Origin: Eledone cirrhosa
Taxonomy: Eukaryota
Assembly (NCBI GenBank): GCA_964016885.1
Contig: OZ024743.1
Location: forward strand, 148,986,001-149,050,000
Reading direction: 5' to 3'
DNA: 64,000 bases
A program made the position numbers and the translations under genes. The notes under the pieces were generated by a model. The model was not told where the DNA came from. It did not search any database and saw only the letters and a list, made by a program, of their open reading frames with translations. Below, piece after piece: positions 21,731 through 39,050 of the stretch; the stretch's first letter is position 1; every line of letters begins with the position of its first letter.

Positions 21731-21817
21731 CTATTCATTTTATTATATACATTTCGAAGAGGCATCGCTTATGTATAATATAATCAAAGATATGTTCTCG
21801 TCAGACAAAATGCATAG
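21731..21817 (-). ncRNA. type I hammerhead ribozyme motif
   Basis: Minus strand: CTATGCATTTTGT-CTGACGA-GAA(36 nt)TTC-GAAA-TGTATA-TA-ATAAAATGAATAG. Stem I pairs 12 of 13 positions, the core is canonical and stem III is minimal. Confidence 0.65.
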
Positions 21818-22229
21818 GAGATGAAGGTTTCTTTTGATATACTGGCAGTCAAATGAAATTGACAGATAAGTGACAACCAAGCATATGATTAGAAAAAAAA
21901 AAAACCAACACGGGAGATGTTACATGAGTGGTAGAAAAATACAGTTGGACTTAACATTTTTGAAATTTAAAATATGACGTAGTATCTATATATAAAATAA
22001 AATATTGTAGTCTGCTTGAAGCATTGTATATAATATATGTGGAAAGCGATATAAGGCTAAACAATCAAAATGGATGGTAAGAAGAAGGTTACCTATTAAT
22101 ATTTTTTTTTTTTATATTGCTATTGTTTCTTCCATCCTAATATTGAAAGACTTAAAATTCCCTTCTTCAGAGTATAAGGAACACTCAAAGAAAAGTGTTC
22201 TGGTTTCTTCTCTTTCGAATTAAATTTAA

Positions 22230-22852
22230 TTAAGGATATGAAACAGGCAAAGTGGCTGGGTCATTGGGAATAGCAACTGAGATGCTGGAAGCACCTGGAA
22301 GGGCACATCATAACCACCCATATCATAAACCAAGTAATACAAAATGGTGTCATGCCCAATGATTTATGTAGCAACATCATCGTGAGCTGCTACAAGGGCA
22401 AAGGAGATGCACTAGACATAGGATACTAACAAGGCTTCATATTACACAGCTGATTAGAGATTTAATTAACTTCGATGATATGCAGTATGGATTTGTGCCA
22501 GGTAAAAGTACCACTAATCCCCTCTTTCATGTGAGGCAACTGCAGGAGAAGTACCTAGTTAAAAACCAGCCACTCTACTTGGCATTTGTTGAGTAGAAAG
22601 TAGAAAGGAAAACAAAGTTCTGATCTCTTTAAGGAAATGGCCTTGATCAGTGTGCAGAAAATGAGTAGGTAGAAATGCCTTCCTTTATCATAAATGCAAA
22701 CTATAGGTACAAAAGAGATGTAGTGGGATGTCTGGCAAGCTAGCAAAGAATGCAAGTTTTATATGTGGTTGATGGACAGGAGCAGTAAGCACCAAGTGCT
22801 CACAGGAAACTGGTTCTATCAATGCTCAGAGGGTTCCATAGAAGTAGTTGAC
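22230..22852 (+). pseudogene. decayed RTE LINE fragment with internal deletion
   Basis: GKVAGSLGIATEML...SCYKGKGDALD...DMQYGFVPGKSTTNPLFHVRQLQEKYLVKNQPLYLAFV, then a jump to SRKENKVLI..KWP*SVCRK and EGSIEVVD; the RT catalytic core is deleted. Confidence 0.85.
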
Positions 22853-24858
22853 CCTTTAAGGTGGTCATGCTGGTCACACAAAAAACCTCTAATCCACCAT
22901 GTAAGGTGGTCGTGCTAGTGACAATAAGCATCCATTTCACCCTGTATAGTGGTTGTGTTGGTGATAATGAAACCATACCCAGTCCAACCTGTCAGATGGT
23001 CATTTTGGTGCCATAATAAAGAGCATCCAGTCCACACTGTAATGTATTTGACATTAGGAAGGGCATAAATCCATAGAAACCATACTAGAAACTGTTCTGT
23101 ATGGACAAGACACAGTCCCGTGATCTGACTTCTCTCACAACAGGACAACTCGTCTAACCTATGCCAGTTAAACAGTAATGATAATTGTTTCTACTTTTGG
23201 CACAAGGCCAGCAATTATCCCAGTCTATTACTGGTACTTTATTTTATCGACCCATAAGGATGAAAGGCAAAGTTAACCTTGGCGGGATTTGAACTCAGAT
23301 TGTAAAGGGCCGTAACTCTTTGCTGCAAAGCATGATGTCCGATCCTCTACCAATACTGCCTACCCACATATTTATCAATCTATCTTTTTCCCTCACTCTA
23401 ATCTTTCAGTTTCTCTCTACATATATGTATATAGTGATACATAGTTTTTCTTAATTTTCATTTTTCTTTACTATTTTTCTTACATGATATCTTGATTGTC
23501 TGATAGATGGTTGTGCCAAACATAGGTGATAATCAGAGTAACAGAGATTGTATTGCAAGTATATCTCAAGTCTTTGGTTCTTTAAATTTGGAGAATATTC
23601 CTATGGGAGAATGATAGTATGTTGTTCAGTCTAGGTTTCTCTGTAGACTGTGAATAATAACATATCACAGCACTGTGGATGGTGTTTAAATACTTAGAAA
23701 TATCTGTAAATATTGTTTGTGTTCAGAGACACATAAAATATTCAGACTGATAGAAGGACAGACTGGATGAAAAGGCAGCTAGATAGTATGGCAGGCAGAA
23801 AGAAGTCAGATTTACAAGCATCTTTTCTGTTTTTATTGTCTAATAATCCACCAAGTCAGTATTGGTAAAAAAAAAAATGAAGCAGTGACTAATCTTATTT
23901 TTGCATATCAAGAACTAATATTTTCTTTCGGTAGAGTGTTGGACAGTATGCTTTATAGCATAGTGTTATGTCCCTTTACGATTTGAGTTCAAATCCTGCC
24001 AAGGTTAGCTTTGCCTTTCATCCTTTAAGGGTCGAAAAAATAAAGTACCAGTAATGCACTGGAGTTAATTTAATGGAATGTCCCTTTCCCAAAAATTGTT
24101 GGCCAATATTTCTAATAAATCCTACCATTTTCATAAAGAATATGGTATGATTTGAGGGCAATTTGGATGTTATTCTAGAAAGTCCAGTGCTCATGTAAAG
24201 GTTACATTATTGGCTTTCAATGTTTGAATTGAAGCGTTTTATTTTGTTATTTTTATACAGTAGCAAAAAGTCCTTGTTTAACTCTTGATCAGCCCAGGTT
24301 GAGTAAATCTATAACTAAAGTCTTTCAAGCCAATACTGGTTATCTCTACTTTTCAAGCATAGATGTATTAAGGACTACATATTCAATGAGTGCTTTGCAT
24401 TTTGAAGCTGCCAGGGTGTGATTTTAAGATTTGGTTGCTATTATTAGTAGGTCAAATAACTATCTCACCTTTCTATAGATTTAAGTTCTTGGTTTTAAAA
24501 GGGTAGGATTTGATTTTAAATAGATTTGGATACTATTTTCAATAGGTCAAACAGTTATTTCATATTTCTGTAATCCTGGAATATCTGTGTATACTCCATT
24601 GTTGGTTTTAAGATTGTAAGATACGATTTGAAGGAGATTTGGCTGCTAGTTTTAGCAGGGGAAAATAAACATGTACAAACTCTTTTAGTGACTTGTAGGA
24701 AGAATGGACTTTAAATAAGGATGATGAAACCTTGCCAGCACAAAGTAACTGAGGAAATATTTGCAAATCATGTTAGATTATTCTGTGTGCTAAAACTGCA
24801 ACTTCAGTTAAAAGCACTATAAGTAACAACAGATCCACACACACAGACAGACACATAT

Positions 24859-25003
24859 TCTAAGTCGAAAAATGTCAGTGACTTCAAAGTTTCAGCTTCG
24901 TTGCTTCATTTGCTAGAAGAAGTAACCAAGCTGAAACTGCAAAGTAACAGCCGTTTTTCTAATTAGAAAATAAAATTTACATTCTACCTACCAATATTGA
25001 GTG
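24859..25003 (+). repeat. degenerate fold-back element with hammerhead-like core
   Basis: Imperfect ~50-bp inverted arms; the right arm reads CTAGAAGA...GAAACTGCAAAGTA; ATATTGAGTG lies downstream. Confidence 0.5.
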
Positions 25004-36661: not shown

Positions 36662-38653
36662 GGTATTAATTAATAGATTGTGAAGAGTTGTTAGGCTGTT
36701 AGATTAAATGTTGCAATATTTGTTTCAGTTCACGGTGTTCTGAGTACAAATTTCACCAGGGTCTACTTTGCTTTCATCATTTTGAGGTCAATACATAATG
36801 TACTAGTTCAATATCAATGGGTTGAATGAATTGTTAAAGAGACAGATGAGGTGCTTTGCAGTATCTAGTTCTGCTCTGTGCATTCTGAGTTCAAATCCTG
36901 CATCCTTCTTCCAGGAGTGGCAACCACCAGAGATTATCAGCAATGTCTGATCTGATGACCATCTTCTTTCTATTACAATGATTCTGTGTTTTTTTTTTCA
37001 GAAAACAGTAGTAGAAACAGAATGGTGGTGATGGAGTAGTTGTACATATTTGGATTGTTAATTACAATTTGTTGTCTTGAATTATTATCTGAAATGTTCA
37101 ATCATTGTTATTTAGGCCTTGGTCAGTCCTGGTTGACAAAAGCTATTATCAAAATTGTTCCAGCCTTGACCATTCTATCTTTTTGTATATCAGAGGTATG
37201 TTTTAATATAACAATTATGGAAATGTTAGTTATATCACTAAATGCAAACAGGTTATTCATTTAAATATTTCTTGCTTGGGAAATTTATTCAAATTGTTGA
37301 AATTTTGCATGGTATATATGTAACCAACATTTGCTATGGATTAGAATTATTCTTCTGCAAAGTTAAGTTAATTGAGGGTACTATTTTTAAATGGTTCTCT
37401 TAATTGTCTTGTACAGTGCCACATTTTTAAATGGTACTCCCAATTATATTGTGCAAAGCCATTTTGCTCTTTTGAGAGCTGATGAGGGTCAAGATATGTG
37501 TGTGAACTTCTCCTTGTCCTCTTCCTCTCTCACTATTTTCTATATTTCATCTGCATGTCACCCACCTTATGTATTGCCTCTCTGCCAACTGCTAACCATT
37601 GGTATCTGTCCTCTGAGGCATTTTAGCCTATTGCTGTTATTGACAGCATTTGTTCTAGTGATGAGTTTTTTCATTTTTCTATGAGATGAAGTGAAAGTAT
37701 ATTTATACTCTCACTTCATCTCAATTAGAGACAACAATGTTTATTCATTTATCATTATCACTATTTTTATATCCACCTCTTCACAGTAACATGGGTTGGA
37801 CAAGAGTTTTGAAGCAGTGTTTCTGTGGCTGGATGCCCTTCCTGATGCTAACCATACATTATTCATAAATATAATATATCTTGTTTTAAAGAAGGTTCTG
37901 TCCAATATCCAAGGGGATTCTTTGAATTAGATGTGTGAATGTACATTTTGAAAATTTATACAGTACCTAAACAAACACCAATGCTTGCTTCAAACATTAT
38001 TGATATGAAGTTGTATGTGGTAAACATGCACATACACAGATATGTATATATATATATATATATATATGTATATATATATATATATATAGTTTCAGAAGAT
38101 CCCATAAAGAGTGAAGTCTGTTATTTCAATAAATATTTGCTCTACGGTTCTTATATATTTGATATATATTTATCCTTATCGAGCCCTCTTTGGATTTTAG
38201 TCTTCAAATTTATTATTATTACTATATATATATATCAAGGTTCCTTATAGCTTCTCCCAAATTCCTTCAAATTGTATTGGTCTGCTTATCGTAGCAAGCA
38301 CTTGCCCAACATACCACTGCACCACAGAGTTGGGTGGAACATGAACCACATATTTGTGAAATAAACCTTTTAATCACACAGCTACATCATTGTCATATAT
38401 TTATATATATATATATATATATATATATATATATATATATATATATATATGACAATGATATATATATATATATATATATATATTTATATATATATATAGC
38501 AAAGGTAAAACTATATATACAATGTTCGAAGGAAAGAAGAGAATTATATATGATATAATTTCCACAACTCCCTTGAAACATGTGTAAGGAAATGTATATG
38601 ATTTAAAAGATAAAAGATAATTTTTTCCATCTATACATATGTTTATATATATA

Positions 38654-38844
38654 TAACGAAGGAAATGTGGTAAGGAACCAGGTGGACCATAACGCACCAA
38701 AGTACTCAATACTTAGGGTAGTAGAGTGGGTAATAGGAATGAGTAGGACCCCGACGGCTGAGCTCAAGCCGTTTAGACGGCTAAGTCCAGAATTAGCCGT
38801 CGAAACGGCTTGAGCTCAGCCGTCGGGGTCCTACTCGTTCCTAT
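38654..38844 (-). mobile_element. TA-flanked element with 52-bp GC-rich fold-back
   Basis: Arms 38733-38784 and 38793-38844 match at 50 of 52 positions; GTATTGAGTA on the minus strand at 38703-38712. Confidence 0.7.
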
Positions 38845-38858
38845 ATATATATATATAT

Positions 38859-39050
38859 ATATTTAATTTAGAAATGGATTCTACAGGACTAGAACTGTTT
38901 GATTTGAAGGAAATCATCAGTAAAGCCTTTCCTGGTGATTTCCTTTGAATGAAACAGTTCTAGTACTGTAGAAGCCATTTCTATATTAAATATTTATACT
39001 CTGCTATGTATTGAGTACCTTACTGTGGTTACTCCCGATTGAACCTGCGA
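38859..39050 (+). mobile_element. TA-flanked fold-back element with hammerhead-like core
   Basis: Arms 38859-38920 and 38932-38993; arm consensus CTGATGA-TTTCCTTTGAAT-GAAAC-AGTTCTA-GTM. Confidence 0.75.

What the first reader, a model, noticed from the sequence alone, without database searches (positions are those of the whole stretch)
21731..39050. Candidate system: TA-associated mini-elements built around hammerhead ribozymes, often as fold-back hairpins
Seen: eight short non-coding loci (21731, 24859, 26107, 27881, 29345, 38087, 38654, 38859), most abutting (TA)n or similar tracts. Each has a complete type I hammerhead fold or part of one, and five are long inverted repeats turning at or beside the hammerhead-like core. 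Four share a downstream RTATTGAGT motif despite largely different bodies. Established: Penelope-like element pseudo-LTRs and retrozymes carry minimal type I hammerheads, and Penelope insertions often have an inverted partial terminal repeat. Inference: these are several families of solo pLTR or retrozyme-like non-autonomous elements. The fold-back may arise by self-priming on ribozyme stems and would yield dsRNA if transcribed. No Penelope ORF is visible in the window.
Basis: partly seen in the sequence, partly recalled or inferred. Interest (0 to 1): 0.75.

Follow-up and report, generated by a model that had tools for sequence, protein, structure and literature searches.

The report
Penelope stubs folding at their promoter
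The eight repeats are real and are short ends of a known kind of jumping gene (Penelope-like elements) inserted into TA repeats; the hairpins likely form when one RNA is copied twice up to its likely start site, which in one family lies inside the predicted self-cutting RNA motif.

Summary
Observation largely confirmed; mechanism re-read. The eight loci are copies of six repeat families. Four families (A, B, H, I) lie about 0.9-1.4 kb downstream of a Penelope-like ORF elsewhere in the genome; family A's ORF has Hydra-clade motifs. C and D are not linked to an ORF. Only 2 of 8 loci keep a strict hammerhead. All 54 family-A hairpins examined pair a short arm with a tail-bearing arm, each ending at a fixed site in (TA)n. 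The arms share subfamily alleles, and junctions differ between copies, so most hairpins arose separately. Fold centres pile up at an initiator-like word, not at ribozyme stems: 43 nt upstream of the core in families F and G, inside loop II in family A. Family B shows no clear pile-up. Likely mechanism: both target strands prime on one RNA, both cDNAs run to its 5' end and join. No RNA run was available, so start sites are predicted. The inverted-plus-tail layout is published, and this scan already reached the two-primer/promoter reading on other DNA of this genome. A start site splitting the ribozyme was not in the papers or note summaries I saw.

The parts
21700..22020 (-). Family H single arm with 5' upstream DNA; complete type I hammerhead at 21736-21812 with a 42-nt stem II/loop; no fold-back. 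Outer ends approximate.
   Evidence: (290 first-look candidates, 40 scored); Hydra-like endonuclease ORF remnant 0.8-1.1 kb upstream in L350, L351, L357-L359, L370
24855..25048 (+). Family D, old hairpin (arms 24855-24907 and 24919-24971) plus tail with motif at 24994-25002; decayed hammerhead; tail end approximate
   Evidence: (166 candidates, 73-82% identity); no ORF link found
26110..26342 (-). Family B hairpin: tail-bearing arm on - (26110-26272, variant core at 26261-26267, predicted +1 at 26272), tail-less arm on + (26274-26342), (TA)n on both sides
   Evidence: ORF upstream in L082, L118
27877..28040 (+). Diverged family-C-like hairpin (arms 27881-27906, 27913-27938), junction inside stem II, tail with motif at 27985-27993
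   Evidence: (76-81% to 38859)
29302..29445 (+). Family I single arm, young; complete minimal type I hammerhead 29345-29400 with palindromic loop III; ends in (TA)n
   Evidence: (20 candidates, 89-100%); ORF upstream in L372, L314
29470..29597 (-).
38088..38222 (+). Family B single tail-bearing arm starting at the predicted +1, with about 20 nt of stem III/stem I deleted; (TA)n both sides
38656..38784 (-). Family A tail-bearing arm (family positions +10 to about +138); 80-nt tail 38656-38735 with the RCTC/GAGY stem at 38704-38727
38784..38841 (+). Family A tail-less arm, starting at the predicted +1 (38784) inside loop II; 3' half of the hammerhead only (GAAA 38802-38805); followed by (TA)n 38842-38861
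38862..39048 (+). Family C hairpin (arms within 38862-38990); long-arm core 38932-38938 has A6 to G, short-arm core 38914-38920 (-) has lost GAAA; tail with motif 39008-39016
   Evidence: (2133 candidates); no ORF link found

Best explanation
The loci are short 3'-end (pLTR) insertions of endonuclease-bearing Penelope-like retroelements, at least partly of the Hydra clade, in (TA)n, and the hairpins likely arise because both strands of the cut target prime reverse transcription on one RNA at two fixed sites and both cDNAs likely run to the RNA's predicted 5' end before being joined head to head. Shown: family membership, ORF linkage for A, B, H, I, two fixed outer ends, one short plus one tail-bearing arm, shared alleles in the two arms, variable junctions, a sharp 5' edge at an initiator-like word in A, C and G. 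Inferred: that the word is a Pol II start site in the pLTR; that the short RNA is the 5' pLTR of the mRNA or a transcript from a 3' pLTR; that the second cDNA displaces the first; that joining uses microhomology or template jumps. The fold lies near the hammerhead because the predicted start site does. In family A the predicted start is inside loop II, so RNAs starting there would lack the 5' half of the core and could not self-cleave; only read-through RNA would hold the whole ribozyme. Most short copies lack the upstream promoter and are likely dead ends.
For: Long family-A copies: 338 exact pattern hits, control 0; L307-L309 show tail-bearing pLTR, ORF, pLTR in partial tandem about 3.5 kb apart; L301-L308, L318, L319 are kb-scale head-to-head pairs with one short and one long end. 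ORF motifs DKT, CxCX5C, CxxC, CxH match the Hydra definition (PMC8557442 section 11) and its supplement alignment by eye. Arms: 54 of 54 family-A hairpins long+short; 3-allele site +48 agrees in both arms 54 of 54, five-site haplotype 41 of 54 against 15.5 (max 26) in 2000 shuffles, 3 private variants in both arms, 37 distinct junctions. 5' ends within -6..+14 of the word: A 33 of 50 (2 upstream), C 28 of 39 (2 upstream), G 7 of 16, F 4 of 8, A' 7 of 12; core at -43 (A), +11 (C), +43 (F, G). The word is YYAGTY in 33 of 38 complete A-group hammerheads although loop II differs between subfamilies. TATA-like box at -26 to -33 in A, C, F, G against a 1.2% background. Contig depth steps about 25-fold at +1 (not a copy number). 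Tail-less arm more 5'-complete in 14, tail arm in 11, equal in 3 of 28 pairs. In vitro precedent: a Penelope-like protein cuts and extends both strands and starts at two sites that bound the tail, without needing ribozyme cleavage (PMC11167929).
Against: No RNA data, so no start site is measured. Each +1 was chosen after seeing where ends cluster; in C the mode is +8, not +1. Family B shows no edge (7 of 49 in the window, 14 upstream, 28 downstream) and E none (3 of 18, provisional zero). TATA-like boxes occur in only 4 of 10 reference copies and are missing in three of four A-group subfamilies. The same words end in YAG, often after pyrimidines, like a splice acceptor. C and D are not tied to an ORF. 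Family-A ORF pieces gave no Pfam hit; RT and GIY-YIG rest on motifs and homologues. Shared alleles could also reflect one subfamily active at a time, or arm-to-arm conversion. 30 of the family-A loci came from a query that was itself a hairpin.
Confidence: 0.7

Rival explanations
1. Self-priming (snap-back): one cDNA or an antisense RNA folds back, on ribozyme stems or at a microhomology, and copies itself to make the second arm.
For: Proposed for Penelope head-to-head palindromes in PMC3846280 (passages). Explains shared alleles at once. Many family-A junctions sit at stem II.
Against: A copy of the tail-primed cDNA cannot reach further 5' than its template, yet the tail-less arm does so by 8 nt or more in 10 of 28 pairs, the reverse in 4. 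Centres in F and G lie about 40 nt upstream of the core. It does not explain the fixed outer end of the short arm (54 of 54), which also occurs in kb-long copies.
Confidence: 0.1
2. The 5' edge is not a start site but a splice acceptor or other RNA-processing site; the two-primer step may still hold.
For: The edge words end in YAG. In D. virilis Penelope the intron end maps to the 5' end of helix I (PMC4209133).
Against: No shared upstream exon appears in the junctions; several arms keep 1-4 genomic bases upstream of the AG; TATA-like and CCAAT words sit at promoter spacing upstream in several families.
Confidence: 0.1
3. The short copies come from non-autonomous masters (SINE-like or retrozyme-like pLTR loci without ORF) moved in trans by Penelope proteins.
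For: Short copies far outnumber long ones. In the random sample the 17 short family-A arms were all of three haplotypes rare among 48 long arms. Trans-mobilisation by pLTRs is reported (PMC3846280).
Against: The long set was selected with a pattern that fixes core base 7, which differs by subfamily; two of the three other haplotypes do have long relatives with upstream DNA (L336, L190, L228), though no ORF was shown for them. No tandem hammerhead units; each hairpin is made anew.
Confidence: 0.25
4. DNA-transposon MITEs with terminal inverted repeats inserted in TA.
For: Short, palindromic, in TA context.
Against: One-sided tail, variable centre, conserved hammerhead core, and continuity with RT-endonuclease ORFs.
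Confidence: 0.02

Closest known systems
Hydra clade of Penelope-like elements (Craig et al. 2021, PMC8557442; passages, section 11 and supplement passages read)
   Same: C-terminal endonuclease ORF with DKT, CxCX5C, CxxC and CxH; hammerhead in the 3' end; (TA)n targets; an octopus member (Hydra-1_Obim) is listed.
   Different: Family A's hammerhead differs from the one listed for Hydra-1_Obim; here there are many families, with about 25 family-A insertions per Mb in a 610-kb sample; fold centres, start sites and the tail stem are not treated in the passages read.
Inverted pLTR plus tail insertions of EN+ Penelope-like elements (PMC8557442 Fig. 2 legend; Adineta Pen2a, PMC3846280, passages read)
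   Same: Head-to-head 5'-truncated copy, tail on one side only, palindromic junction, putative TATA and initiator in the pLTR.
   Different: Here most insertions are pLTR-only; tails are 60-90 nt in A, B, C rather than 30-40; that paper favours self-priming on an antisense template, my data favour two primers on one sense RNA.
Poseidon of Anolis, PAc (Frangieh et al. 2024, PMC11167929; parts 1-3 of 4 read)
   Same: Two internal RT start sites bounding the tail; both target strands cut and extended; uncleaved RNA is the template.
   Different: There the start sites are not homologous to the target; here both family-A ends fall at a TA in the RNA and join (TA)n. Joining of two cDNAs was not shown there.
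[quoted passage not shown]
   Same: U3-A8 core variant (families A, G), palindromic loop III, U10.1-U11.1 mismatch (B, C, F), pairs on opposite strands 100-700 bp apart.
   Different: Family A has a 50-60 nt stem II/loop carrying the predicted promoter; family B has a fixed U4-to-A change that I did not find in the passages read.
Animal non-LTR retrozymes (bioRxiv 10.64898/2026.07.22.740005, part 1 of 5 read)
   Same: Non-coding, type I hammerhead, related to pLTRs.
   Different: Defined by tandem units each with a hammerhead; these loci are single or head-to-head arms.

Membership tests
EN+ Penelope-like element insertion | 3' end continuous with an RT plus GIY-YIG ORF | tested here: met
   Met for A, B, H, I; ORF identified by motifs and homologues, not by Pfam
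EN+ Penelope-like element insertion | ORF link for families C and D (loci 24859, 27881, 38859) | tested here: inconclusive
   No ORF within the flanks held; same layout, hammerhead and tail stem as A
EN+ Penelope-like element insertion | Partial-tandem pLTR-ORF-pLTR copies | tested here: met
   L307, L308, L309
EN+ Penelope-like element insertion | Inverted 5'-truncated copy with a tail on one side | tested here: met
   54 of 54 family-A hairpins; 28 of 32 pair rows across families
EN+ Penelope-like element insertion | Target-site duplication | tested here: inconclusive
   Flanks are (TA)n, so none can be read
Hydra clade | DKT motif, CxCX5C linker, CxxC and CxH around E and N | tested here: met
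   Family-A ORF pieces against PMC8557442 section 11
Hydra clade | N-terminal RWK motif | tested here: inconclusive
   Present as RWK/RWR in the homologues aligned; the family-A pieces aligned do not cover it
Hydra clade | Placement in an RT phylogeny | not tested
   No tree built; comparison with the published alignment was by eye
Hydra clade | (TA)n insertion preference | tested here: met
   Nearly all of 30 family-A loci have (TA)n on both sides
Type I hammerhead | Conserved core with three stems | tested here: met
   Strict in 21731 and 29345; parent copies of A, C, F fold within 0-1.6 kcal/mol of the optimum with the core unpaired; core base 7 varies while the rest is kept across A subfamilies, and stem II has a G-C to A-U change between A and A'. 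No Rfam hit
Type I hammerhead | Self-cleavage | not testable with these tools
   Needs an in vitro assay
Non-LTR retrozyme | Tandem units each holding a hammerhead | tested here: not met
   No such array in the window or around the copies viewed
Non-LTR retrozyme | Circular RNA from cleavage site to cleavage site | not testable with these tools
   No RNA run listed; insertion ends are not at the cleavage site
MITE / TIR DNA transposon | Symmetric terminal inverted repeats around a fixed interior | tested here: not met
   One-sided tail, 37 distinct centres of 54

The most novel reading that the evidence does not exclude
Hydra-type Penelope elements place their promoter inside the hammerhead: the mRNA starts in loop II, so its 5' copy of the ribozyme is cut in half and inactive while the 3' copy is whole. 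A conserved RCTC/GAGY RNA stem between the two priming sites loads a dimeric reverse transcriptase that copies one RNA onto both target strands. The by-product is on the order of 10^5 short genomic hairpins, a possible major source of double-stranded RNA for A-to-I editing in this animal.
Probability: 0.35. Interest if true: 0.75.

Novelty: new variant of a known kind. Interest (0 to 1): 0.45.

Why it matters
How Penelope-like elements make their inverted and tandem repeats, and what their hammerhead does, are stated open questions (PMC8557442, PMC11167929). These families give exact predicted coordinates for the RNA start, both priming sites and a candidate recognition stem, which makes the two-primer model testable against self-priming. 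A start site inside the ribozyme would be a simple way to keep the mRNA's 5' end uncut. The density (70 insertions of seven families in 610 kb) means such stubs are a sizeable repeat class that automated tools could file as MITEs or SINEs. Octopus has unusually many dsRNA-forming loci and the strongest hyper-editing in PMC5625713 (passages); that this genome is an octopus comes from earlier scan notes, not from my calls.

Tried and rejected
Rfam scan: no hammerhead. A core directly before family A's apparent stem II: 0 hits; a canonical core within 25 nt: 17 hits, all junction or chimeric forms among those viewed (output partly cut). The true core is a U3-A8 variant 43 nt upstream. GIY-YIG family search gave Neptune-like elements (families F, G), not the parents of the window loci. 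I first took family A's ORF for Nematis-like from memory; the motifs fit Hydra. BLASTP of that ORF against a Neptune-like ORF: no significant match. RNA evidence: no RNA holder listed; only contigs of unknown kind from one study were laid, possibly the assembly's own sample. Cap-derived extra G before the predicted +1: inconclusive (A 15 of 67, p 0.73; C 6 of 8 at +5, but the G can come from the other arm). The apparent lack of long parents for common short haplotypes was traced to pattern bias. Walking upstream of C found no ORF. Chimeric loci L031, L034, L040 were not used as evidence, since nested insertion explains them. One search was swamped by TA matches and rerun; the arm typing was off by one base and redone. 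Some part ends were read from printed sequence and are approximate. Literature: 8 full-text searches showed no paper placing a start site inside a Penelope hammerhead or describing the tail stem; subscription journals, Repbase/Dfam entries, the preprint's supplements and most of the Craig supplement were not seen.
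Full report
Observation. The eight loci exist as described. Five are inverted repeats of 26-72 nt arms and four carry RTATTGAGT. The other six loci have variant, damaged or half motifs. Rfam found no hammerhead. The window is G000:C4:148986001-149050000 of a 3.0-Gb animal genome.

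Families. Each locus is a dispersed repeat: A (38654; 2759 first-look candidates), B (26107, 38087), C (38859 and the diverged 27881), D (24859), H (21731), I (29345). In 610 kb taken at round-number positions, not in proportion to chromosome length, there were 15 A, 12 B and 17 C insertions, and 70 for seven families together. A separate de novo search found 76 fold-backs of all kinds in 600 kb.

Parents. The 5' half of family A's hammerhead is missing from short copies. A diverged relative (A') next to a family-C hit showed a U3-A8 core far upstream. A pattern built on it gave 338 exact hits, control 0; this counts one subfamily only, because core base 7 varies. Nineteen of these regions were fetched: three show tail-bearing pLTR, ORF, pLTR about 3.5 kb apart, and ten are kb-scale head-to-head pairs with one short and one long end. 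The ORF has 1136 homologues, the best mostly about 700 aa, no Pfam hit, and DKT, CxCX5C, CxxC and CxH motifs that define the Hydra clade (PMC8557442). Similar ORF ends lie 0.8-1.4 kb upstream of A', B, H and I copies; none was found for C or D. Two Neptune-like elements from the GIY-YIG search (F, G) show the same short hairpins and serve as outside cases; 'Neptune-like' rests on the CxxC linker as described in PMC8557442.

Anatomy of a hairpin. All 54 family-A hairpins held have one arm ending at about +57 and one ending 80 nt further on, both joined to (TA)n at a TA of the element. Thirty of the loci came from a hairpin query, but the random set shows the same. The centres differ: 37 distinct of 54, some with short repeated pieces. 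The two arms agree at subfamily sites far more than shuffled pairs (41 of 54 against 15.5; site +48 in 54 of 54) and share 3 private variants, while 32 private variants are on one arm only. So each hairpin is a separate event and both arms likely come from one template.

Where the fold lies. Mapping arms from the random set and from flanks onto long natural copies, 5' ends fell within -6..+14 of an initiator-like word in 33 of 50 (A), 28 of 39 (C), 7 of 16 (G), 4 of 8 (F), 7 of 12 (A'), but only 7 of 49 (B) and 3 of 18 (E) (arms under 30 nt, under 80% identity or at a sequence edge were dropped). The core starts at -43 in A, +11 in C and +43 in F and G, so the edge does not follow the ribozyme. 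In family I many copies stop about 60 nt upstream of it. The word is YYAGTY in 33 of 38 complete A-group hammerheads, at a fixed place in an otherwise divergent loop II. TATA-like boxes lie at -26 to -33 in 4 of 10 reference copies (background 1.2%). Contig depth over an A pLTR steps about 25-fold at +1, with loose ends at +1 and at both outer sites; this is supporting only. Each zero was set after seeing the data, no RNA run exists here, a cap-G test was inconclusive, and the word also resembles a splice acceptor.

Snap-back or two primers. In 28 of 32 pair rows (dropped: two E pairs, one both-short B pair, one duplicate) the tail-less arm reaches further 5' in 14, the tail arm in 11, equal in 3; by 8 nt or more, 10 against 4 (counted by hand). 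A fold-back copy of a tail-primed cDNA cannot reach further than its template. Two cDNAs from two start sites can, and a Penelope-like protein was shown to extend both strands from two such sites (PMC11167929). Self-priming was proposed earlier for these palindromes (PMC3846280).

The shared motif. RTATTGAGT is the 3' strand of a short predicted stem, RCTC paired with GAGY, starting a few bases after the short-arm end. It was found in 13 of 50 tail clusters against 0.58 in shuffles (max 5 of 1000) and 2 on the reverse strand, with A-U and G-C versions of the outer pair. The motif was defined after seeing the tails, some clusters are not Penelope ends, and B tails were cut short by an internal TA run. 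A coral Hydra consensus printed in the Craig supplement appears to have the same stem (by eye). F and G lack it. An earlier scan note reports a one-sided tail motif too.

Comparison and verdict. Inverted 5'-truncated copy, one-sided tail, (TA)n targets, U3-A8 and U-U hammerhead variants, and a promoter in the pLTR are all in print. An octopus repeat annotation mentions Penelope-like families but not hammerheads or hairpins (PMC13282606, passages). This scan already noted the promoter-centred, two-primer reading and the Hydra assignment on other pieces of this genome; I read those notes after forming the same view and do not count them as support. What this locus set adds is the predicted start site inside loop II of family A, conserved across four subfamilies, and the same-template test. 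The elements are ordinary members of a known class; the mechanism is likely but untested. Interest 0.45.

Noticed in passing
window 41255-64000: A 30-bp tandem array of about 737 copies running off the window end, with long open frames up to 1249 aa broken by frame changes; mucin-like Thr/Ser/Pro coding exon or satellite.
   Followed up: no
window 11378-13693 (-): Two adjacent ORFs; 12197-13693 has RT (E 1e-28) followed by a PHD finger; likely a LINE remnant.
   Followed up: partly
window 33603-33670 (+): Strict hammerhead-like motif with 7-bp stem II but 1-bp stem III; no match in the loci held; may be old or chance.
   Followed up: partly
window 16559-16626 (-): Tail fragment of family C beside a TG repeat.
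   Followed up: partly
L099, L101, L118 and window 26261-26267: Family B carries a fixed U4-to-A change in the hammerhead core with a U-U first pair of stem II; D copies seem to share the change. Activity unknown.
   Followed up: partly
L031, L034, L040: Family-A arms joined directly to hammerhead stem II of unrelated families E and F; nested insertion or template jumps between different RNAs.
   Followed up: no
L083, L090: Neptune-like ORFs in head-to-head pairs whose two 3' ends stop at two different points: the same layout as the short hairpins in another clade.
   Followed up: partly
loci L001-L391 pooled: At least a dozen further hairpin families with hammerhead cores and one-sided tails; several stop at a TCATAT-like word 60-85 nt upstream of the core.
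   Followed up: partly
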